Part shown: positions 47,879-57,600 of the stretch, piece after piece
Layout: each line of letters starts with the position of its first letter
Position numbering within the stretch: position 1 is the stretch's first letter
From: Candidatus Poseidoniaceae archaeon
Lineage (GTDB): Archaea > Thermoplasmatota > Poseidoniia > Poseidoniales > Poseidoniaceae
DNA length: 60,332 bases
Direction: 5' to 3'
Assembly (NCBI GenBank): GCA_049606035.1
Contig: JBMYVD010000006.1
Span: 1 to 60,332, forward strand
Position numbers and translations under genes: made by a program
Notes under the pieces: model-generated
Databases searched by the model: none
What the model saw: only the letters and a program-made list of their open reading frames with translations
Told to the model about the DNA's origin: nothing

Positions 47879-48670
47879 ATGTTCAAAGGAAGGGTGGAAA
47901 AGGTCAGCCATGAGGGCGGTCTTTTAGTGAGTTATACTGGTGCATGCCCTGCATTAGGAAGTGTGATGGTAGACTCAAGTGAAACCTACATCGGCAAAGT
48001 CGACGGTGTGATTGGCAATCTCGAAAACTCCCTAGTCCACGTCGCTCACCTTGATAGGAAAGCTAACGCACAGGGAATGGTCGGCCTAGAGATAACAATC
48101 CGAAGCAAAAAACCTCGTGATAATCAGCGCTCAAGAGACAATAATCGCTCAAATGACAATCGACGAGATCGCAATGACTGGCGTTCTAATGATAGAGGGC
48201 GAAGAGACGATAGAGACAGAGGTCGCTCAAGGGATGACAGAGGTAGGGGTCGTTCAAGAGATGACAGAGGTGGCAATCGTAGAGATAGAGGTGACAACCG
48301 TCGCCAAAATGACAACCACTCCAGAAATGATTGGGATTGTGGAGAATGTGGCAACTCTAATTTTTCATTCAGAACAGAATGCAACCGTTGTGGAGCGCCA
48401 AAGGGACGTGGCGGCAGAGGTCCAACAAAACAGTGGAATGGCAACGATAGAAGGCCTGGCGATAGAAATGAGGGGCCAGAACCTCGTGCAGGAGATTGGG
48501 AATGCCGCAAGTGCAAGAAGATGAACTTCGCAAAGAGAAACGAATGTTTCAGTTGTAGAACTCCAAAACGTGTTGGTGGACCAAAGAAAAAGGGCCATCA
48601 CAGGAGTCATAGAGACCCTCCTCCTCTTCACTCAGCAAAATACGGCAGAGGTAGGAGGGATGACAGGTGA
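47879..48670 (+). CDS. Gar1/Naf1-like domain + RG/RD-rich linker + two RanBP2-type zinc fingers
   Basis: N-terminal G.V..V...G.L.V.....P.LG..VD.....IGKV..VIG pattern; two W-x-C-x2-C-x3-N-x6-C-x2-C fingers. Confidence 0.8.
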   Translation: MFKGRVEKVSHEGGLLVSYTGACPALGSVMVDSSETYIGKVDGVIGNLENSLVHVAHLDRKANAQGMVGLEITIRSKKPRDNQRSRDNNRSNDNRRDRNDWRSNDRGRRDDRDRGRSRDDRGRGRSRDDRGGNRRDRGDNRRQNDNHSRNDWDCGECGNSNFSFRTECNRCGAPKGRGGRGPTKQWNGNDRRPGDRNEGPEPRAGDWECRKCKKMNFAKRNECFSCRTPKRVGGPKKKGHHRSHRDPPPLHSAKYGRGRRDDR

Positions 48671-49704
48671 GTGCTGAGGGCCATTACCTCGATGCGATTG
48701 AAGCGGAAGAAGATGGTGATTTTGACGCTGCTTTAGAGCACGCCCAAATGGCTGTAAAATCTGACCCAGAACATTCCAATGCTTGGTGGATGGTCACTTG
48801 TTTGTTGGCTCCAGATGGCAAATACCCAGATATCGAACAGGCGTCAAAAGCCCTTGCCGCCTGTACAAAAGTCGTCGAATTAGACCCTACAAGAGTTGAC
48901 GCATGGGTCAAAGGTGGACGCTTGATGGTCGACCACTTAGGTCTGTTTGAGGACGCACTTCACTGGTGGCAGAGATGCAGAGAAGCTGCACCGCTTGAAT
49001 CCGTACCTATTCTAGAACAAACCACAATTCTAGCAGATCTTGGAATGTACCCTGAGGCAAGGGACAGATTGAGTGCTCTATTCGAGGAAAACTTGGACAT
49101 ATCTAACTCACAATTGGCAAAAGTAAGTCAGTTACACAAGACGCTGGAAATGTCTGCTCAGCAGGACACTAATTCCCATTTCAAACCGTGGAAGAAGAAT
49201 GATGGTGGATGGACTGCAATCAAAATGCGTGCTAACAAAGCACCGGTTTCTGAGAATTTGCTATTCATGATGACTACAATTCCTTTCCTCATGATGGAAG
49301 TATTCCTATCTCGCTCATTATTTGGCGATGGATGGCAGGGGTTTTGTTTCACTAGCATCCTAATCCTAGTAACCGTGATAATTGGTATGGGGTTCACAAG
49401 AAGGCTATACAGAAGTGTGAACAAGCCTGGATTCAACCTACTACGAGCGATACAATTCGAAGCAAGCAGTGCTAGATTAGTTATCCCTAGCGATATTCGA
49501 ATGGGGAAACTATACCTTTTCCTATTCTCAAGACACCCGCCAGCATTCCAGCAAAGGCTGGAGAGAATCATTGAATCTGGTAAGAGCCTTCCAAAAAATT
49601 GGAAAATGAATTTACCTGATTTCGATTCTCATCTCGATGAAATAGGATACATCGAGGATGGCAGTGAGGACTCGTCTGAACTCTCTTCTTACGAAGAAGA
49701 GTGA
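48667..49704 (+). CDS. TPR-repeat protein with two C-terminal TM helices
   Basis: TPR-like repeats (AVKSDPEHSNAW, VVELDPTRVDAW); GTGA overlap. Confidence 0.7.
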   Translation: MSAEGHYLDAIEAEEDGDFDAALEHAQMAVKSDPEHSNAWWMVTCLLAPDGKYPDIEQASKALAACTKVVELDPTRVDAWVKGGRLMVDHLGLFEDALHWWQRCREAAPLESVPILEQTTILADLGMYPEARDRLSALFEENLDISNSQLAKVSQLHKTLEMSAQQDTNSHFKPWKKNDGGWTAIKMRANKAPVSENLLFMMTTIPFLMMEVFLSRSLFGDGWQGFCFTSILILVTVIIGMGFTRRLYRSVNKPGFNLLRAIQFEASSARLVIPSDIRMGKLYLFLFSRHPPAFQQRLERIIESGKSLPKNWKMNLPDFDSHLDEIGYIEDGSEDSSELSSYEEE

Positions 49705-51057: not shown

Positions 51058-54000
51058 CTATTGTTGTTGCTGGAAATGTCCGGCATATTGTTGGGCATAG
51101 GCCCGGGCCGTTTCCTCAGGATATCCTTGGGCAATCAGTTGTTGGACGTATTGCTCCATTGGATCCATCTGAGCAACACCAGCGTATCCAGCTGCGGTTG
51201 CACCGAAATCATCGCCCATTGAAGAATCGATGATGTCTCCTTCCTTTCCACCTCTTAGAACGAAGAAGAGGGAGAGAATTACCAATACAGCAATTCCGAT
51301 TCCTCCGCCCAGGTATAGCATCAGATTGTCGTCTTCAGATGCTACCTCGTCGCTCTCTGGAGCCTTGTCAGGAATACCGTCTCCGTCTGAGTCAGTATAC
51401 TCTCCTGACCACTCACATTTGCTGGTTGTTGCATTCCAAATCCAGTATGCATCTGGTTCAGCATCTACAACTTCAGTAGGCGGAGTTATTCCTTGACATG
51501 CCGGCAATACAATCTGGATGTCGTATATGATTGGCCATCTCTTGTCATCACCTTCGTAAATCTTCAGATAGATTCTCCTGTCAAAGTCCGTCTCATTGGT
51601 GAACAAGTCACTGATGGTTAGAGTTAGGGAGAAGTCATCATTGTCTCCCAAAGCCTCTGACTTTGCCCACTTTCCTTCTAACTGTAGTGTATACTTTGCA
51701 ACAGCAGTTTGGTCGAATGTAGATTCGTCTAATGCTGCTTCGACGTAAACATCTCCCTGTTCAGCACCATCTAAGATTGTACCACTCAGTGTTATGGTGT
51801 CTGTTACAACCTGTGTGCCGTTCAATGACAAGTCTAGTTGGACGGTTGGTTCTGCGTCACCGAATCCTTCTGGAACAACTGAGAAGTACATCTTGTACTT
51901 GTCAGAACTCTTTCCTGCTTGGTCGAATACAACCAATTCGATACGGATTAGTGATTCTGTTTGACCACTTGGGTCAACTGTTACGTTGTTGAATTGATAT
52001 GACCACTTACCGTCACTCGAACTAGGAGTAACGAAAGTGTGGCCATCCAACTTGTAATTGTCTTCATCGTATGGCTTGTCGAACAGTACTGTCCACTCGT
52101 ATTGTTCGATACCGTTTCCAGTCAGAGCGTCAGCGTCTGAAGAGTTGCCAGCATCGAAATGGATGACTAGAGAACCTGTATCATCTAGATGAAGTCTCTT
52201 TTGAGGCCAATCTACACCTGAAACGGTCTTGAGACCTTGGTCTTCAATTCTGTCTTCGTATTCAGCACGCATATCGATTTCTACGTCTGCAATAGGTCTG
52301 TATTCGTCTGCTCTTGTGTCATCTGTTTGGACGGTTACTGAGATAGTCCTCGAGTGACCTTCATCATCGTGCAGATACAGAGTAATTTCCCAAGTTGCTC
52401 CCTGAAGACATCCTGTAGCAGAGGATAAGTCGACCTTACAGAATTGAACCATTGGGTTTGCTACATCTGTGTGGTCTGTGCCACTAGCCATTGATGCTCC
52501 CATCCAATCTGTAGGTCCGCTCATTACCCAGTCTGTGTTTAGATTCTCTGTGGAGGTTGTTTGGAATCCGAAGGTTACCTCGGAGTTACTCTTCATGTAA
52601 TGGTATGCATATCCGCCTGTTGATGGGTCGAAGGATGGTACTTCCCCGTTGATGGTTAGGTCCAATCCGTTTCCAAGCGTACCGAACCCTTGAGGGTATG
52701 GTGACACGTGGTAATCTAGCATGTTTCCTAGTAGTGGGAAGGTAGAGCTGTCTGCTCTCTCAGATACGCTTTCCACGTCGATTGTTGTGACTATCAATCC
52801 TCCATCCACGTAACTGCATACACCAAGAACAGTGTCCTGGGAATCTGCCTGAGATTGTATCAATCTCTGGAAGGACCCCCCTTCCTCTGAGTATCCACCA
52901 CATGCACGTGGTATCGCTGTCGAAGATGCGCTCTTTGTATTGACAATCGCCTCAGTTACGGTTCCGAACTGGTCGAATCCTTGGAATGCTGCTAGGTCAA
53001 CACCGTCCAAAATTGGGTGATATGGATCTGCGACTTCCATGTTGTTGTAGGTGATTCTTGTCTCTGGCGTGTCTCTAGGCTGAATGTGCATGTCAAACGG
53101 CAAGAGGCTCTCACCTGTTGATGATGAGTACTCATAGTAGTCAGTAGCACTGGAGAGGTGTACTTGCACAGTACCACCAGATGACATGAAGTTCTTCAAT
53201 GCGTTTTGGTTTGTAGATGAACCAATCAACTCATAGTATCCCTTTCCACCCTCATCACTCGGCTTAGCTGTGTTTACATCTTGCTGAGGCATGATGACCT
53301 TGTCGTAGTGTACAAGCCATCCTAGGTCTAGGTATTCACTCCAATCGTTGATGTTGTACTGAGTGTATGTCATTCCAAGAATTACCAAATCCTCCTTGAT
53401 CGCTGTAACTCTTGCTGAGTCTCCTGATAGGATTGCGACATCAACATCGTATGCAAATCCAGCGTGGAAGTATCGTGTGTTACCGGAGGAACTGCCGTCT
53501 GGCAAGGTTGCGTGGTAACTGATATTGTACTTGTGACCGTCCATCCAACCGTTCCATGGTGTGAAGGTGACCGTAGTCCTCTCGTTTGCTGCGAGGGTTT
53601 GGCTAGGTCCAGCAGTTGTTGTGTGAACTTGTGCTCCAGTATCCATGTCGACTACAGTCATGTGGAATGTGTAATCTCCTTGCAGAACACCGTTTGTTGC
53701 AGATAGCGACCAGTCGTGTTCTGTTACGTTGTCAATTGGTAGGATACAATCTAGAACAACATCTGACAAACAGGAAAGGGTATCTGGTTTACCGAGTGTA
53801 ATATCCACGCTTTCAACCGAGAAGATTACTCTAGCCAGGTTGTTTGCAACTGAAATTTCTTCAGCACCGAACCATGGTGTTCCTTGGGTTGTGTTGTCAA
53901 AGATTGACTCAACTTCAATCATGTAAACTCCGGAAACGAAGTCGTGGTTTGATACTGTGATTGTCCTGTTTTCTTCAGCATCGAGGTCTACAACAGATGT

Positions 54001-57000
54001 GCTGTAAACCGCATCCTGAGTGAATGAGAACTCTTGCAGAGAGATGTTGTCGAATGCAACACCGCGTACACCGTCATTCTGTCCATTGTGGATATCATCA
54101 TTGGAGCGGAACTCGAAGTTGATATCTACTACAGATCCTGCTAGACTGATACACTCATCCGACCAATCGTTAGTATCTGCAGATGTTGTGTTGAAGATGT
54201 ACAGGTGAGTCAAGTCGATGCTCCTACTCTGTACAAGACCGTCAGTGTTGTAGAATACGTTGTAGTTTCCAGAACCACCGTTTACGTTAGTAGGGTCACC
54301 GATATACTCGATTTCAGTGTTGTCGATTGTTGTCTCATTAACTGGGTCAATGAATCCATTGTCGTCCTCATCAACGATACAGAAACCGTCTTCGTTGTAG
54401 TCATTCCACTGGCCGTAGATTAGACCGCTGTAGTCGTTGCCTCCAGTAGTCCAGTCAGCTGTAATTGCAGCGTAATCGTTCACGTCAGTGGTTTGTCCAG
54501 ATTGCTGGATGTCGAACCATGTTTCAGCGAAATATTCGAAGTTTAGAGCAACGAAGTCTCCACTCATGCTCGTCAAATCGATGTCAGGAATGGTTAGGGT
54601 TTCATTCTCCCAAACGCTGCCGTAACTGTTTGGTGTGTCACAAGGATGACCGAACCAGTATGCGTTTGAACCGAATACCTTCTCTGGACATGATGAATCA
54701 TCTAGGATTCCACCGTTTGCGTTACCGTCATCGGTGTATCTGAATCCGGATGAACCACCCTCGAATCCTTCATCGCAAACAACGAGTGGAGATCCACAGT
54801 AAACATCTGTTGGAAGCGCGCTGAATACCGTGGCCTCAAGATCAAATGTTACGTTGGTGTTTCCAAGATGCTCTACCTTTACGTTGACTGGGAAGTTACC
54901 CTCTGCGTACAAACTACCAGGTTTGAAATCTTCAATTCCGACAACTCCGGGGTCGAACAGATTGAACGCAGTAACATACCCAACGATTTCATCGTTAGCA
55001 GGTTGTTCGTCTTGACCGTAGTTCAGTACTGCTGAGATACGATAAGTAGTGCCATTTGTGAAATCTGCTGAAATTGCAGATGTGTAATCCTCGTTTGGAG
55101 CAAGGTTGTTCATGTTGATGTTTGACTGTTGGGTCTGAACATTACTTGTGAATACAGTGTTCTGCTTCCAAATAGTGACGTTGTCAATTGCAAATCCATC
55201 ACGGCCACTCCAAAGTGATTCATTGGAACCCAGGGAGCCTTCCCAACCAGACTTGAATCTAAATCTGATATCGATAGTTTCGCCAGCGAACCTTGACAAC
55301 TCGAAAGCACCTAATCCCTCTTCAGTGAAGTTGCCCCAACCGTACTGAGTACCTGGGATTGCTCCTCCATATCGGTAAATTGCTGCATCTAGACCTGTGT
55401 TAGCTTCACTTTCTACTCTACCGTTGTCATATCCACCCCAGTAACTGGTTCCTGAAGCACACTGTCCTGCGAAGTAGGCTGTGTTTGGACAGTTCAGTAG
55501 AACCCATCCAACATCTTCTGAGAATACTTCAATCATTGCTGCATCGTCCCATACTTCAGCCAGAACAAATCCGTTCTGATCTTGAGAGTAAAGGTCTGCT
55601 AGACCGAGATGGCGGAAAATTTCCAGACTCATCCAAGCACGGTCTGCACCAGTCAAGTCCACGTCATTTAGAACCAAACCTTCGTCCCAGTTTGGCTCAT
55701 ATCCAGACCAAGTGTCTCCGCTGGAGTTTGTCTTCATTAGACCAGACCACATGAAATCGGTTGGGTTGTTTGCGTTAGCAGCCTCTGATGCTGCATTGTT
55801 ACCGGAGGTGTGACCTACAGTGCTGTTTGCTGCTACTTCCTCGTGCCAGTGAGCAACCCCGTAGTATGCTTCAGTTGACCAAGTACATCCTGTTCCACAA
55901 CCACTTCTGTCTTCGGGATTGTCCCAATCCATTGCATAGACTGTGACGTTGCTGGATGCTGCTTCATCAACTTCCTTGATTTCAACATCAAGTGTCGCTT
56001 GGCCGTTTAGAATATCCATTCCCGTGTTGGTTACTGTAACCTCGACTTCACGAGTTCCTTCACCGAGTGCGCCAACGTATGCATCTGTTGGGCTGATGTC
56101 AATACTAGAAACTGCGAGGTCCTTGTTATCCATCTCAATAACGACGATTCTGTCATAGGAACCATCCCAGCCAAAATTGTCATCGTAAGTGAATTGGTCG
56201 TAAGCACCGTGTCCGACAATCAAGTCAGGGGCACTGTTTGGACCACCAATGACTTGTCCAACAGCGACTGTAGTAGGTCTCATTGCACCGAAGTATTCCA
56301 GTGGGCTCATGTGACCTCCACCACCGTTAGAAAGTGTTACCTGGACGCTAGTTGGTAGGTTCAGATAGTAAGTTGAAGTAGTCTCTCCAGTGGACGAGGT
56401 AGAGTTGGACTGTCTAAACTTAGCAGCGTGAACGAAGTCCGGTTCTCCATCGCCATTCAACTCTGCGACAGTGACTTCCCATGCGATGTATGGTCCGAAG
56501 TACACTGTCTTGGTTTGACTGAATGTGTGTGTTGATTGAGTAATTGTTGCATAACTCACGTTTTCGGTGTTTGCGTCGTTCATTGCCACTACGTCAATAA
56601 TGCCGTCTTCATCCATGTCTCCGATGTCGAAGCCACCGAATTCTACTCCTAGTTGGTGATTGTGGGCAGATCCTGTGTATCCTACACCTGTACCTTGACC
56701 GCCAGTGGTGGCCCAAGCGAAGGAATCAGGGAATTTGTTAGAGTTACAATCGAATTCAATTACGGTTACGTTGTCTGAGTGTCCAGGTGTAGTGCTTGTA
56801 CCTGTTAGGTAATCGACACCTTCTGCTCTGACAAGCCACATGTCGACGTCGTCACAAGAGCCGCTGATGCTAGTCTGAGATGGCTCACCCCAGTCTCCCA
56901 GTTCAAGATCTCTGTAAGCGTTTTGAGTTGAATCACCTAGAAGTGTAACCTGTCCCTGAGTTGATGAAGTAATTGGACCCATGTAAGTTACAGCTCTCTG

Positions 57001-57600
57001 ATTCTTTATGTCTGCAAGTAATTCAAGAGTTACGATGTCGTCGTTTCCATCGCCGTTCAAATCTGCGACTGCTAGGTCCCACATCCAAATTACATCGTAT
57101 TGCTCTCCGATAGAGAAAGTTTGCTCGTTACATCCACCATTTTCGATGATGGTTACGTTTCCTGGAGTGTCAACAACAAGCGCACCTGAAGCGTCTTGGG
57201 TCAGAGGCCTGTTTCGTGCATAGATAACGATGTCAATCGCATTGTCACCTGTGAACTCTCCGACCTCAACCTGCTGGGTGTTGGAATGGTCTTCGAAATC
57301 TGCATCCTGGTTTTGATTAGCAGATGTCCAAATATCGGTCCTTTCTTGGAAATGTCCGTTTTCATTCCACAATACCGAAATCTTGGTACTGCGGTCGTTT
57401 GCTGTTACAATATCTAAATCACCGTCACAATCGAAGTCACCCAAAGCAACGTCTACAGGGTCTGTGTCGGTTGTATAGGTCCTTGAAGTCGAAGCAGACA
57501 CAAGGTTTGCGGCGGTCGTTGAAAGTAACATTACTAAAACTAAGAATAACGCTCTACCGCGTCCTTCTGCATTCATACTCTTCCAAAGCATCTTCATCAC
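51058..57600 (-). CDS. Giant cell-surface protein (2180 aa): FG-GAP/VCBS repeats, CARDB/Ig-like and jelly-roll modules, C-terminal TM
   Basis: Signal peptide; GDFDCDGDLDIV, ADLNGDGNDDIV, GDMDEDGIIDVV; IRFRFKS...DGFAIDNV; TM near the C-terminus. Confidence 0.85.
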   Translation of the reverse strand: MMKMLWKSMNAEGRGRALFLVLVMLLSTTAANLVSASTSRTYTTDTDPVDVALGDFDCDGDLDIVTANDRSTKISVLWNENGHFQERTDIWTSANQNQDADFEDHSNTQQVEVGEFTGDNAIDIVIYARNRPLTQDASGALVVDTPGNVTIIENGGCNEQTFSIGEQYDVIWMWDLAVADLNGDGNDDIVTLELLADIKNQRAVTYMGPITSSTQGQVTLLGDSTQNAYRDLELGDWGEPSQTSISGSCDDVDMWLVRAEGVDYLTGTSTTPGHSDNVTVIEFDCNSNKFPDSFAWATTGGQGTGVGYTGSAHNHQLGVEFGGFDIGDMDEDGIIDVVAMNDANTENVSYATITQSTHTFSQTKTVYFGPYIAWEVTVAELNGDGEPDFVHAAKFRQSNSTSSTGETTSTYYLNLPTSVQVTLSNGGGGHMSPLEYFGAMRPTTVAVGQVIGGPNSAPDLIVGHGAYDQFTYDDNFGWDGSYDRIVVIEMDNKDLAVSSIDISPTDAYVGALGEGTREVEVTVTNTGMDILNGQATLDVEIKEVDEAASSNVTVYAMDWDNPEDRSGCGTGCTWSTEAYYGVAHWHEEVAANSTVGHTSGNNAASEAANANNPTDFMWSGLMKTNSSGDTWSGYEPNWDEGLVLNDVDLTGADRAWMSLEIFRHLGLADLYSQDQNGFVLAEVWDDAAMIEVFSEDVGWVLLNCPNTAYFAGQCASGTSYWGGYDNGRVESEANTGLDAAIYRYGGAIPGTQYGWGNFTEEGLGAFELSRFAGETIDIRFRFKSGWEGSLGSNESLWSGRDGFAIDNVTIWKQNTVFTSNVQTQQSNINMNNLAPNEDYTSAISADFTNGTTYRISAVLNYGQDEQPANDEIVGYVTAFNLFDPGVVGIEDFKPGSLYAEGNFPVNVKVEHLGNTNVTFDLEATVFSALPTDVYCGSPLVVCDEGFEGGSSGFRYTDDGNANGGILDDSSCPEKVFGSNAYWFGHPCDTPNSYGSVWENETLTIPDIDLTSMSGDFVALNFEYFAETWFDIQQSGQTTDVNDYAAITADWTTGGNDYSGLIYGQWNDYNEDGFCIVDEDDNGFIDPVNETTIDNTEIEYIGDPTNVNGGSGNYNVFYNTDGLVQSRSIDLTHLYIFNTTSADTNDWSDECISLAGSVVDINFEFRSNDDIHNGQNDGVRGVAFDNISLQEFSFTQDAVYSTSVVDLDAEENRTITVSNHDFVSGVYMIEVESIFDNTTQGTPWFGAEEISVANNLARVIFSVESVDITLGKPDTLSCLSDVVLDCILPIDNVTEHDWSLSATNGVLQGDYTFHMTVVDMDTGAQVHTTTAGPSQTLAANERTTVTFTPWNGWMDGHKYNISYHATLPDGSSSGNTRYFHAGFAYDVDVAILSGDSARVTAIKEDLVILGMTYTQYNINDWSEYLDLGWLVHYDKVIMPQQDVNTAKPSDEGGKGYYELIGSSTNQNALKNFMSSGGTVQVHLSSATDYYEYSSSTGESLLPFDMHIQPRDTPETRITYNNMEVADPYHPILDGVDLAAFQGFDQFGTVTEAIVNTKSASSTAIPRACGGYSEEGGSFQRLIQSQADSQDTVLGVCSYVDGGLIVTTIDVESVSERADSSTFPLLGNMLDYHVSPYPQGFGTLGNGLDLTINGEVPSFDPSTGGYAYHYMKSNSEVTFGFQTTSTENLNTDWVMSGPTDWMGASMASGTDHTDVANPMVQFCKVDLSSATGCLQGATWEITLYLHDDEGHSRTISVTVQTDDTRADEYRPIADVEIDMRAEYEDRIEDQGLKTVSGVDWPQKRLHLDDTGSLVIHFDAGNSSDADALTGNGIEQYEWTVLFDKPYDEDNYKLDGHTFVTPSSSDGKWSYQFNNVTVDPSGQTESLIRIELVVFDQAGKSSDKYKMYFSVVPEGFGDAEPTVQLDLSLNGTQVVTDTITLSGTILDGAEQGDVYVEAALDESTFDQTAVAKYTLQLEGKWAKSEALGDNDDFSLTLTISDLFTNETDFDRRIYLKIYEGDDKRWPIIYDIQIVLPACQGITPPTEVVDAEPDAYWIWNATTSKCEWSGEYTDSDGDGIPDKAPESDEVASEDDNLMLYLGGGIGIAVLVILSLFFVLRGGKEGDIIDSSMGDDFGATAAGYAGVAQMDPMEQYVQQLIAQGYPEETARAYAQQYAGHFQQQQ

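What the first reader, a model, noticed from the sequence alone, without database searches (positions are those of the whole stretch)
47879..48670. Archaeal Gar1-like protein with FET-like architecture (RG/RD region + 2 RanBP2 zinc fingers)
Seen: residues 1-75 resemble the archaeal Gar1 beta-barrel of the H/ACA RNP. Residues 80-150 are R/D/G/N low complexity (DRGRSRDD twice). Then come NDWDCGECGNSNFSFRTECNRCG and RAGDWECRKCKKMNFAKRNECFSCR. Known: typical archaeal Gar1 is a bare small domain, while eukaryotic Gar1 has GAR tails. RanBP2-type fingers with this N-F-x-x-R pattern bind GGU ssRNA in FUS/EWS/TAF15 and ZRANB2 and are mostly eukaryotic. Inference: a eukaryote-like multivalent RNA-binding, possibly condensate-forming, H/ACA subunit in a non-Asgard archaeon.
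Basis: partly seen in the sequence, partly recalled or inferred. Interest (0 to 1): 0.8.

Follow-up and report, generated by a model that had tools for sequence, protein, structure and literature searches.

The report
Archaeal Gar1 fused to RNA-binding zinc fingers
In marine Group II archaea the small Gar1 subunit of the RNA-guided pseudouridine synthase carries a long arginine-rich tail with zinc fingers of the kind that bind single-stranded RNA in human FUS and ZRANB2, an architecture I found described in no paper.

Summary
Window 47879-48670 (+) is a real 263-aa gene of a Poseidoniales (Marine Group II) archaeon.

- **Residues 1-78:** these fold as a Gar1 barrel (AF2 pLDDT 91; Foldseek top hits all Gar1, TM 0.80-0.86). 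Pfam scores them below its cut-off (16.2 vs 29.3 bits).
- **Only Gar1 candidate:** it is the only one in this genome. None of 61 near-complete Poseidoniales genomes has a canonical Gar1, while the sister family keeps a 75-89-aa one.
- **H/ACA partners:** Cbf5, Nop10 and L7Ae-family genes are present. An in-silico complex with the genome's own Cbf5 scores 0.78 against 0.01 for the best control.
- **Residues 79-150:** a disordered R/D/N/G linker.
- **Residues 151-176 and 204-231:** two Pfam-significant RanBP2 fingers (64.6 bits). Their best solved relatives are the RNA-binding FUS, ZRANB2, RBM10 and RBM5 fingers.
- **Distribution:** the fusion, with 0-5 fingers, is found across the order and is under purifying selection. 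Outside the order I found one RanBP2 finger, in an unrelated protein.

Best reading: this is the lineage's Gar1, and its tail adds single-stranded-RNA binding to the H/ACA particle. RNA binding and condensate formation are untested. It is a new variant of a known kind.

The parts
47866..47870 (+). Shine-Dalgarno-like GGAGG, 8 nt before the ATG
   Evidence: Read directly from the sequence. The intergenic gap to the upstream gene's stop (47851) is only 27 nt.
47879..48112 (+). Gar1 beta-barrel core (residues 1-78), with the lineage-invariant S-H-E-G-G loop
   Evidence: AF2 gives pLDDT 91.4. The Foldseek PDB top 11 are all Gar1 or the Naf1 Gar1 domain; the best is 2ey4_D at TM 0.80/0.85, rmsd 1.8. 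The top 6 profile hits against PDB are all Gar1, best E 1.3e-3. The predicted Cbf5 interface uses residues 8, 10-12, 16, 23-27, 42-48, 50-52 and 54.
48113..48328 (+). Disordered Arg/Asp/Asn/Gly-rich linker (residues 79-150; net charge +10)
   Evidence: Composition. pLDDT is below 50 for residues 80-147 in the full-length model. dN/dS is 0.215, and relatives differ by in-frame indels. A metatranscriptome contig carries an 18-nt in-frame insertion behind 48118.
48223..48280 (+). 27-nt tandem repeat (2.1 copies) inside the linker, encoding RGRSRDDRG twice
   Evidence: Tandem Repeats Finder score 74; peptide positions.
48329..48406 (+). RanBP2-type zinc finger 1 (residues 151-176), FUS/EWS-like class
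   Evidence: PF00641 scores 37.4 bits at 48329-48403. pLDDT is about 82. The Asp before the Trp, N14, aromatic-17, R20 and N24 are kept, with Phe at position 19. I mapped these through the ZRANB2 alignment and passages of PMC6384913.
48407..48487 (+). Inter-finger spacer (residues 177-203), Gly/Arg/Pro-rich
   Evidence: Composition; low pLDDT for residues 179-200.
48488..48571 (+). RanBP2-type zinc finger 2 (residues 204-231), RBM5/RBM10-like class
   Evidence: PF00641 scores 41.5 bits at 48485-48568. Its best PDB match is the FUS finger 6g99_B, E 1.6e-6. Position 14 is Lys, 19 is Lys and 24 is Phe. In the family this class occurs only as the last finger.
48572..48667 (+). Basic C-terminal tail (residues 232-263) with a conserved G-P-K..K-G-H-H-R..D-P-P-P-L-H-S-A-K-Y-G motif
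   Evidence: P235, G239, H240, P247, Y255 and G256 are invariant in 27 close homologues. dN/dS is 0.038. A related G-H-A-H-N motif is seen in more distant members. Its function is unexplained.
48667..49704 (+). Downstream gene (345 aa, N-terminal TPR repeats and hydrophobic segments); its GTG start overlaps the gar1 stop by 4 nt
   Evidence: ORF; TPR_1 scores 28 bits. It follows gar1 in 7 of 7 same-genus loci and in 3 loci of the other large family. RNA-library contigs bridge the junction (records 11, 18 and 25). A functional link is not shown.

Best explanation
This is the Gar1 subunit of the box H/ACA pseudouridylation particle of a Poseidoniales (Marine Group II) archaeon, with a lineage-specific C-terminal extension. 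The N-terminal barrel sits on the catalytic domain of Cbf5 as canonical Gar1 does. In characterised archaeal particles that position governs the thumb loop and product release (established knowledge, as stated in the introduction of PMC8096250). The extension is a flexible, positively charged Arg-rich linker carrying two RanBP2-type zinc fingers of the single-stranded-RNA-binding subclass, followed by a short conserved basic/His motif. I infer that the tail gives the particle extra, partly sequence-selective contacts with single-stranded RNA. Finger 1 would prefer GGU-like triplets; finger 2 would be G-G-N-like with a relaxed third base. These contacts would help capture or hold rRNA substrates, or chaperone their folding. 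That would make the tail a functional analogue of the RGG tails of eukaryotic Gar1, built from different parts. Shown in silico: gene, fold, domain content, distribution, selection, and predicted Cbf5 docking. Inferred: RNA binding, its specificity, and its effect on pseudouridylation. My confidence is about 0.9 that this is the lineage's Gar1 orthologue with true RanBP2 fingers, and about 0.5 for the RNA-tethering mechanism.
For: **Identity as Gar1**
- The AF2 model of residues 1-80 has pLDDT 91.4.
- Foldseek ranks archaeal, yeast, human and insect Gar1 and the Naf1 Gar1 domain in the top 11, with TM 0.80/0.85 to P. furiosus Gar1.
- A 19-sequence profile of the N-domain hits only Gar1 chains in its top 6 PDB matches.
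- In 1.84 billion representative proteins that profile reaches short 75-130-aa proteins. Of the 10 I scanned, 9 are Pfam Gar1 and 6 are over the cut-off.

**Orthology**
- This ORF is the only PF04410 candidate in the 82.8%-complete genome.
- In 71 genomes of the class, 0 of the 61 Poseidoniales genomes other than this one have a match over the cut-off. Their better-scoring matches all lie in long open frames, 126-512 aa for every match at E up to 0.06.
- In the same search, 9 of 9 sister-family genomes have a Gar1 match in a 75-89-aa frame, 6 of them over the cut-off.

**Partners**
- Cbf5 is present, 318 aa, with DKCLD, TruB_N and PUA domains.
- Nop10 and L7Ae-family genes are present.

**Docking**
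- The score is 0.78 against a best control of 0.01, a mark reached by 58 of 80 solved complexes and 2 of 110 mismatched pairs.
- The runs agree in at least 92% of contacts, and the partner's pLDDT is at least 88.
- My own alignments were used, so the calibration counts hold only roughly. Like complexes are solved, so the pass may reflect likeness.

**Fingers**
- Pfam scores them 64.6 bits.
- The best solved relatives are FUS, ZRANB2 finger 2, RBM10, ZNF265 and RBM5. Full-length RanBP2 (7r5j) ranks third by whole-sequence E-value (3e-6), but its single fingers score only 3.5-15.6 bits. Nup153 is weaker, E 1.5e-5 and above.
- Across the 282 family fingers that fit the strict spacing pattern, the Asp before the Trp is kept in 281. 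Position 17 is Phe or Tyr in all 282. R20 is kept in 281. Position 24 is Asn in 229 and Phe in 50.
- These are the contact positions named in passages of PMC6384913.

**Conservation**
- 40 of 41 relatives searched have the gene.
- RanBP2 fingers (E up to 1e-4) are in 41 of 42 and 13 of 21 genomes of the two large families. They are in 0 of 8 of the sister family, and over the cut-off in 1 genome outside the order in a 301-genome phylum sample.
- dN/dS is 0.03-0.2 in all parts.
- Contigs of four seawater RNA libraries from one study cover the gene. This shows presence only.
Against: - Pfam and NCBIfam Gar1 models do not reach their cut-offs: 16.2 against 29.3 bits, and 21 bits against a cut-off of 132. 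By the curated sequence criterion it is not a member.
- The profile-to-PDB E-value is only 1.3e-3.
- The docking result is for a textbook pair and may be recalled from solved structures.
- No H/ACA guide RNA was looked for in this genome, so a working H/ACA system is assumed from its proteins.
- Finger 2 lacks two of the base-reading Asn residues (Lys and Phe instead).
- Finger 1 has Phe where ZRANB2 has Arg19. In FUS and EWS that position is an aromatic Trp, and the paper reports that this did not appear to affect specificity.
- Some members of the order have no finger at all: 8 of 21 genomes of one family, both genomes of a third family read, and 2 of 98 apparently complete proteins. The fingers are therefore dispensable for the core function.
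- In yeast, removing the Gar1 RGG domains changed activity only modestly and in opposite directions for two hairpins (PMC8096250, passages). By analogy the effect of a tail may be subtle.
Confidence: 0.7

Rival explanations
1. Condensate scaffold. The multivalent tail (Arg-rich disordered region plus 1-5 RNA-binding fingers) mainly drives RNA-dependent phase separation. This would concentrate ribosome-biogenesis factors in a nucleolus-like body, rather than tune catalysis of single particles.
For: The architecture is multivalent and largely disordered: pLDDT is below 50 for residues 80-147. Finger number varies from 0 to 5, and linkers expand by tandem repeats. Some members carry long Gly/Arg runs (L022). 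PMC8096250 (passage) notes that RGG domains are involved in phase separation in other proteins.
Against: No evidence of any kind bears on condensates here. The window's linker is R/D/N-rich with 16 Asp and only 2 RGG, which differs from classical GAR domains. Members without fingers and with short tails exist.
Confidence: 0.12
2. Repurposed Gar1-like protein. The N-domain keeps the fold, but the protein works apart from Cbf5 as a general single-stranded-RNA-binding protein or chaperone. It might act like a Naf1-like factor or an mRNA or rRNA regulator. Poseidoniales Cbf5 would then work without Gar1.
For: The N-domain is diverged enough to fail the curated Gar1 cut-offs. It carries lineage-invariant residues (S-H-E-G-G) that are not seen at the aligned positions of P. 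furiosus Gar1. Naf1 shows that the Gar1 fold can serve another role; it appears at rank 9.
Against: The invariant residues lie in the predicted Cbf5 interface (residues 10-12, 24-26, 46 and 54). The docking score is 0.78 against 0.01 (same caveats as above). It is the single Gar1-like gene, replacing the short one of the sister family. N-domain dN/dS is 0.026.
Confidence: 0.1
3. The fingers are protein-binding modules, like the ubiquitin-binding NZF fingers or the Ran-binding fingers of Nup153 and RanBP2. They would recruit a protein partner rather than RNA.
For: The RanBP2 fold serves both uses in eukaryotes. Nup153 and RanBP2 fingers do appear among the PDB hits, and full-length RanBP2 ranks third by whole-sequence E-value.
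Against: The top single-finger matches are the RNA-binding fingers. The RNA-contact positions are almost invariant in the family. PMC6384913 (passage) reports that a finger with Lys and Ser at positions 19 and 20 did not bind RNA; here R20 is kept in 281 of 282 fingers. From recall, not from any call here: the NZF ubiquitin-binding dipeptide is not at the matching place.
Confidence: 0.05
4. Artefact: a chimeric assembly, eukaryotic contamination, or a spurious ORF in low-complexity DNA.
For: Low-complexity DNA here also yields spurious ORFs in other frames (48117..48524 + and 48124..48516 -). RanBP2 fingers are mainly eukaryotic.
Against: The same gene is in 40 of 41 related genomes. It sits in the same gene order in 7 of 7 same-genus loci. 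Selection is codon-position-biased. Genome contamination is 0.42%.
Confidence: 0.01

Closest known systems
Archaeal Gar1 (e.g. Pyrococcus furiosus, PDB 2ey4, 2hvy, 3mqk, 2rfk)
   Same: The same small beta-barrel (TM 0.80-0.86, rmsd 1.7-2.1, 24-25% identity). The same predicted seat on the Cbf5 catalytic domain. A single copy beside Cbf5, Nop10 and L7Ae.
   Different: Canonical archaeal Gar1 is short: 75-89-aa frames in the sister family and mostly 68-153-aa frames elsewhere in the phylum. Some carry basic tails of about 45-70 residues. This protein adds 185 residues with two zinc fingers, and its core is too diverged for the Pfam cut-off.
Eukaryotic Gar1 with glycine-arginine-rich (RGG/GAR) tails (yeast 3u28_C, human 7trc_D)
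   Same: A Gar1 core flanked by a disordered Arg-rich region thought to touch RNA (PMC8096250, passages). The fold matches at TM 0.77.
   Different: Eukaryotic tails lie on both sides of the core and have no zinc fingers. Here the tail is C-terminal only. In this protein it is R/D/N-rich with 2 RGG, and it carries folded RanBP2 fingers.
RNA-binding RanBP2-type fingers of FUS/EWS/TAF15, ZRANB2, RBM5 and RBM10
   Same: The best sequence matches among solved structures: FUS 6g99_B at E 1.6e-6, ZRANB2 finger 2 at 2.4e-6, RBM10 at 2.8e-5. The spacing of Trp, the four Cys and Asn is the same. The contact positions named in PMC6384913 are conserved.
   Different: The host protein is an archaeal RNA-modification subunit. 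It has no RRM, and no Ser/Tyr/Gly/Gln-rich or SR domain. Finger 2 has Lys14 and Phe24. RNA binding has not been measured.
Naf1 (eukaryotic H/ACA assembly factor with a Gar1-like domain)
   Same: A Gar1-fold domain embedded in a longer, largely disordered protein that binds Cbf5 (2v3m_D at rank 9, TM 0.63).
   Different: Naf1 coexists with a true Gar1 and is replaced by it (abstract of PMC10123114 in the listing). Here no second Gar1 was found, and the fold is closer to Gar1 than to Naf1.

Membership tests
Gar1 (H/ACA RNP subunit) | Sequence match to the curated family model at its cut-off (Pfam PF04410; NCBIfam Gar1 equivalogs) | tested here: not met
   PF04410 scores 16.2 bits against a cut-off of 29.3, or 18.4 bits in the genome scan. 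NF009629 scores 21.2 bits against a cut-off of 132.
Gar1 (H/ACA RNP subunit) | Profile-level homology to bona fide Gar1 | tested here: met
   The top 6 PDB hits of the N-domain profile are all Gar1, best E 1.3e-3 over the full domain. The weak tail of the 1.84-billion-protein search is canonical Gar1: 9 of 10 scanned, 6 over the cut-off.
Gar1 (H/ACA RNP subunit) | Six-stranded Gar1 beta-barrel fold | tested here: met
   AF2 pLDDT 91.4. Foldseek ranks 1-11 are Gar1 or the Naf1 Gar1 domain, TM up to 0.86.
Gar1 (H/ACA RNP subunit) | Binds the catalytic domain of Cbf5 | tested here: met
   In silico only. The score is 0.78 against a best control of 0.01, a mark reached by 58 of 80 solved and 2 of 110 mismatched pairs. 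Runs agree in at least 92% of contacts and the partner's pLDDT is at least 88. My own alignments were used, and a like complex is solved, so the pass may be from memory.
Gar1 (H/ACA RNP subunit) | Sole Gar1 of the genome, co-occurring with Cbf5, Nop10 and L7Ae | tested here: met
   The genome is 82.8% complete. None of 61 related genomes, all at least 90% complete, has another candidate over the cut-off.
Gar1 (H/ACA RNP subunit) | Presence of box H/ACA guide RNAs, and a role in product release | not tested
   No guide-RNA search of the genome was made. Rfam found nothing in the window. Activity needs biochemistry.
RanBP2-type zinc finger (Pfam PF00641) | Match over the curated cut-off, and the pattern W-x-C-x2-C-x3-N-x6-C-x2-C | tested here: met
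   64.6 bits against 27 in 2 stretches; 41.5 and 37.4 bits singly. The pattern is read directly.
RNA-binding subclass of RanBP2 fingers (ZRANB2/FET/RBM5-10 type) | Asp before the Trp, Asn14, aromatic-17, Arg or aromatic at 19, Arg20 and Asn24 (positions as in ZRANB2 finger 2, PMC6384913) | tested here: met
   Finger 1 has all of these, with Phe17 and Phe19. Finger 2 keeps the Asp, Phe17 and Arg20 but has Lys14, Lys19 and Phe24. That the paper's 'D4' is the Asp before the Trp is my own mapping.
RNA-binding subclass of RanBP2 fingers (ZRANB2/FET/RBM5-10 type) | Measured binding to GGU-containing single-stranded RNA | not testable with these tools
   Needs purified protein and binding assays.
FET family (FUS/EWS/TAF15) | N-terminal Ser/Tyr/Gly/Gln-rich domain plus an RRM plus RGG boxes around one finger | tested here: not met
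   Pfam finds no RRM. The N-terminus is a Gar1 barrel. Only the finger subclass and an Arg-rich disordered region are shared. The FET architecture itself is stated from general knowledge.

The most novel reading that the evidence does not exclude
The ancestor of Marine Group II archaea acquired a eukaryote-type, sequence-reading single-stranded-RNA zinc finger, most simply by transfer from a marine eukaryote. It welded arrays of this finger onto the H/ACA pseudouridylation particle. Gar1 would then read GGU-like triplets on pre-rRNA or other RNAs, and might nucleate an RNA-protein assembly. That would be an independent, prokaryotic version of what the GAR tails of Gar1 do in the nucleolus.
Probability: 0.2. 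Interest if true: 0.8.

Novelty: new variant of a known kind. Interest (0 to 1): 0.6.

Why it matters
Gar1 is the one H/ACA core protein that does not touch the guide RNA, and the role of the RGG tails of eukaryotic Gar1 is called elusive (PMC8096250, passage). Here one of the most abundant groups of ocean archaea has given Gar1 a different RNA-binding tail, built from folded fingers whose RNA specificity can be measured and mutated. That offers a natural experiment on what a tail on Gar1 is for. It also places RanBP2 fingers of the FUS/ZRANB2 class in a non-Asgard archaeal order. They were found in 54 of 63 sampled genomes of its two large families and in almost none of the rest of the phylum sample. 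This bears on how 'eukaryotic' RNA-binding modules are distributed and exchanged. Databases name these proteins 'zinc finger protein' or 'hypothetical', and only some JGI entries say Gar1. The gene is therefore easily missed as the H/ACA subunit, which matters for marker sets and annotation of these genomes.

Tried and rejected
- **Single-sequence search of the N-domain against PDB:** it gave only one weak hit (2hvy_B, E 0.69). A profile and a fold model were needed.
- **Origin of the fingers:** a scan of viral contigs with the two-finger region found no relative. Ten pattern matches came back and none was confirmed.
- **Longer fused forms:** only 2 proteins of 468 aa were found, with no further Pfam domain. 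The tool says that finding none is weak evidence.
- **Rfam at gathering threshold:** nothing in the window. No search for H/ACA guide RNAs in the rest of the genome was attempted.
- **The one over-cut-off RanBP2 finger outside the order (G063):** it lies at the C-terminus of a 449-aa proline-rich membrane protein, and at the contact positions it does not have the family's N-F..R residues. It is not a Gar1 fusion.
- **Long open frames around Gar1 in four other genomes of the phylum:** these are mostly upstream non-coding read-through. The real proteins are about 75-146 aa, two of them with basic tails of about 45-70 residues and no finger.
- **RNA-library contigs:** they show presence, not transcription, start, end or level. 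All four runs come from one study, and most pieces are 90-95% alike, so they come from relatives. Stretches without cover in that call mean nothing.
- **Literature:** no paper in the held library contains both 'Gar1' and 'Poseidoniales'. Searches combining RanBP2, zinc finger, archaea and Gar1, RanBP2-type finger, archaea and prokaryotes, and Gar1 with MGII terms listed nothing on this fusion. Subscription journals and supplements were not searchable.
- **Papers seen:** I saw PMC6384913 and PMC8096250 as passages only, PMC7641849 as two passages, and all others as search listings.
- **A script that missed:** one script's pattern matched nothing useful, and I redid it.
Full report
**The gene**

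Window 47879..48670 (+) is an open frame of 263 codons with an ATG start. A GGAGG lies 8 nt upstream. It sits 27 nt after a 633-aa gene with no Pfam match. Its stop overlaps by 4 nt the GTG start of a 345-aa TPR-containing protein. An S-adenosylhomocysteine hydrolase gene on the other strand follows. Other ORFs listed over 48117-48524 on both strands are by-products of the low-complexity DNA.

The frame is under purifying selection. Against the nearest relative, dN/dS is 0.026 for residues 1-78, 0.215 for the linker, 0.064 for the finger region and 0.038 for the C-terminal tail. Length differences between relatives are in whole codons.

**The organism**

The window is contig 6 of a 1.74-Mb, 109-contig genome that is 82.8% complete with 0.42% contamination. 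Close homologues of the protein are named by NCBI as coming from Candidatus Poseidoniaceae or Poseidoniales archaea, that is, Marine Group II.

**The N-terminal domain**

- Single-sequence scans are weak. Pfam Gar1 gives 16.2 bits against a cut-off of 29.3. The best NCBIfam Gar1 model gives E 2.2e-4, but over its whole length. The only PDB hit is P. furiosus Gar1 at E 0.69.
- I aligned 19 N-domains from across the order (A1). The top six PDB hits of the profile are all Gar1: four P. furiosus constructs at E 1.3e-3 to 2.8e-3, then two yeast GAR1 entries.
- AlphaFold2 on A1 gives a six-strand barrel with mean pLDDT 91.4.
- Foldseek against the PDB puts Gar1 of P. furiosus, yeast, human and insect and the Gar1 domain of Naf1 in ranks 1-11 (TM 0.80/0.85, rmsd 1.8 for 2ey4_D). 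Generic barrels of ATPases and RimM come only below.
- The same profile, run over 1.84 billion representative proteins, finds 139 proteins, 113 of them at E up to 1e-10. These 113 are the family itself. A weak tail of short proteins follows. I scanned 10 of them: 9 are Pfam Gar1 and 6 are over the cut-off.

The domain is therefore a diverged Gar1.

**Is it the Gar1 of this lineage?**

- It is the only PF04410 candidate in its genome.
- In 71 genomes of the class (all but G000 at least 90% complete), none of the 61 Poseidoniales genomes other than this one has a match over the cut-off. Every match at E up to 0.06 lies in a long frame of 126-512 aa. Five of the 61 have no match at E up to 1.
- All 9 genomes of the sister family have a match in a 75-89-aa frame, and 6 of these are over the cut-off.
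- Elsewhere in the phylum, Gar1 frames are mostly 68-153 aa. I read four longer ones. They proved to be proteins of about 75-146 aa, two with basic tails of 45-70 residues and none with a finger.
- The partners are present: a 318-aa Cbf5 with DKCLD, TruB_N and PUA domains, Nop10 and two L7Ae-family genes.

**Docking on Cbf5**

I folded the N-domain alignment with an alignment of 23 Cbf5 sequences from the class (A2). The model supports binding:
- The score is 0.78 and the best of 3 controls is 0.01.
- That mark was reached by 58 of 80 solved complexes and 2 of 110 mismatched pairs.
- The runs agree in at least 92% of contacts, and the partner's pLDDT is at least 88.

My own alignments were used, so the calibration counts hold only roughly. 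Cbf5-Gar1 complexes are solved, so the pass shows likeness rather than proof that this copy binds.

The interface on Cbf5 is residues 114-138 and 169-177 of the catalytic domain. From recall, this is the region around the thumb loop. On Gar1 it includes the family-invariant S10, H11, E12, P24, L26, G46 and H54.

**The tail**

- Residues 79-150 contain 26 Arg, 16 Asp, 12 Asn and 7 Gly out of 72, with net charge +10 and only one RGG. They include a 27-nt tandem repeat and are modelled as disordered, with pLDDT below 50 for residues 80-147.
- Two fingers follow, at residues 151-176 and 204-231. Pfam scores them 64.6 bits together, and 37.4 and 41.5 bits singly. pLDDT is about 80-86.
- No other significant RanBP2 finger exists in the genome, and none exists in 14 well-known control genomes.

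**The finger subclass**

Against all PDB sequences the best matches are the FUS finger (6g99_B, E 1.6e-6), ZRANB2 finger 2 (2k1p/3g9y, 2.4e-6), RBM10, ZNF265 and RBM5. Full-length RanBP2 (7r5j) ranks third by whole-sequence E-value (3e-6), but each of its fingers scores only 3.5-15.6 bits. Nup153 entries are weaker, from E 1.5e-5.

Passages of PMC6384913 name the RNA contacts of ZRANB2 finger 2:
- a stacking aromatic at position 17;
- Arg19 and Arg20, which read the two guanines;
- Asn14 and Asn24, which read the third base;
- an Asp at their 'position 4', present in 80% of putative RNA-binding fingers.

The passages add that FUS and EWS have Trp at position 19 with no apparent effect on specificity. 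Fingers with both Asn replaced, such as human RBM10, tolerate any third base.

Using the alignment, finger 1 here has Asn14, Phe17, Phe19, Arg20 and Asn24, which is FUS/EWS-like. Finger 2 has Lys14, Phe17, Lys19, Arg20 and Phe24, which is RBM5/RBM10-like.

Over the 282 family fingers that fit the strict spacing pattern:
- the Asp before the Trp is kept in 281;
- position 17 is Phe or Tyr in all 282;
- Arg20 is kept in 281;
- position 14 is Asn in 229 and Lys in 49;
- position 24 is Asn in 229 and Phe in 50.

The Lys/Phe class occurs only as the last finger.

The last 32 residues carry a conserved motif (G-P-K..K-G-H-H-R..D-P-P-P-L-H-S-A-K-Y-G). Six positions in it are invariant in 27 homologues. 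More distant members have a related G-H-A-H-N motif. I have no explanation for it.

**Distribution**

- 40 of 41 relatives have a homologue.
- The word-indexed protein search gave 228 hits. The 120 listed nearly all carry PF00641, and the named ones are Poseidoniales.
- Among 193 family proteins in hand that have the N-domain motif, finger counts are 0 (56, many of them fragments), 1 (29), 2 (74), 3 (29), 4 (4) and 5 (1).
- Of 98 proteins that also have the C-terminal motif, 96 have at least one finger.
- In a 301-genome sample of the phylum, fingers at E up to 1e-4 were found in 41 of 42 genomes of the window's family. They were found in 13 of 21 of the second family and in 0 of 8 of the sister family.
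- Outside the order only one match exceeds the cut-off. It sits in an unrelated membrane protein.
- Two genomes of a third family of the order have proteins of about 150 aa with basic tails and no finger. One genus has a degenerate finger.
- The simplest history, which is an inference, has three steps. A basic tail is old in the phylum. Fingers were gained early in Poseidoniales. They were then multiplied by tandem duplication and lost in some genera.

**Other context**

- The gene order (upstream gene, gar1, TPR gene, ahcY) holds in 7 of 7 same-genus loci.
- The TPR gene also follows gar1 in 3 loci of the other large family.
- Contigs from four seawater RNA libraries of one study cover the gene and bridge into the downstream gene. 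Most come from relatives that are 90-95% alike. This shows presence in RNA libraries, not transcription.

**What it most likely does**

Established knowledge, as summarised in the introduction of PMC8096250:
- archaeal Gar1 does not touch the guide RNA;
- it mediates between the open and closed states of the Cbf5 thumb loop, and so controls product release;
- eukaryotic Gar1 differs by RGG domains whose role is elusive.

In that paper, deleting the RGG domains changed activity modestly and pointed to contact with substrate RNA.

I read the Poseidoniales protein as the same core with a different RNA-binding appendage. The appendage is a flexible cationic tether with one to five small fingers, each expected to grip a three-nucleotide single-stranded motif. 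This would raise the local concentration of substrate RNA at the particle or hold unfolded rRNA. The fingers are dispensable in some genera, so this is an accessory function.

RNA binding, its specificity and any effect on catalysis are inferred and not shown. Condensate formation is possible for such a multivalent protein but nothing here tests it.

**Novelty**

- No paper in the held library contains both 'Gar1' and 'Poseidoniales'.
- Three wider searches listed nothing on this fusion.
- Public annotations call it 'zinc finger protein' or 'hypothetical', and JGI calls some members 'rRNA processing protein Gar1'.
- I file it as a new variant of a known kind: a Gar1 with an undescribed, order-wide domain architecture.
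- It is not a FET-family member, since it has no RRM and no Ser/Tyr/Gly/Gln-rich domain.

Noticed in passing
window 48572-48667 (residues 232-263): A strongly conserved C-terminal motif lies after the last finger (G-P-K..K-G-H-H-R..D-P-P-P-L-H-S-A-K-Y-G). More distant members have R-G-K-x-x-G-H-A-H-N instead. dN/dS is 0.038. There is no family match and no explanation.
   Followed up: partly
window 48667-49704 (+): A 345-aa protein with N-terminal TPR repeats and hydrophobic segments. Its start overlaps the gar1 stop by 4 nt. It follows gar1 in 7 of 7 same-genus loci and in 3 loci of the other large family. It may form an operon with gar1; no functional link is known.
   Followed up: partly
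window 45950-47851 (+): A 633-aa protein with an N-terminal signal-like segment, a Ser/Thr/Asp-rich stretch and a C-terminal hydrophobic anchor. It has no Pfam family at E up to 0.001 and ends 27 nt before gar1.
   Followed up: no
window 51058-57600 (-): A very large ORF (2180 aa) whose only Pfam match is FG-GAP-like repeats near the N-terminus. It is probably a surface protein.
   Followed up: no
L061 1392-2741 (-), genome G063 contig 2: This is the only RanBP2 finger over the cut-off outside the order in the phylum sample. It sits at the C-terminus of a 449-aa proline-rich membrane protein of a high-GC relative, and at the contact positions it does not have the family's N-F..R residues.
   Followed up: partly
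L028 (genome G030) and L017 (genome G036): One genus has a Gar1 tail with a degenerate zinc ribbon that has lost the N-F..R residues. Another has fingers with N-Y and an extended last Cys pair. These look like stages of decay or divergence of the fingers.
   Followed up: no
window 48118: A metatranscriptome contig (run X6) from a close relative carries an 18-nt in-frame insertion in the linker, adding one more repeat unit (table 4). Linker length is polymorphic in nature.
   Followed up: no
L019 and L027 (genomes G028, G033): Parts of the Arg/Gly-rich tails of these homologues read as N (withheld bases), so their tail lengths and finger content could not be read.
   Followed up: no
window 48117-48524 (+) and 48124-48516 (-): Two ORFs of 135 and 130 aa in other frames overlap the linker and finger region. 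They are by-products of the repetitive purine-rich DNA and not genes (selection on the gar1 frame).
   Followed up: yes
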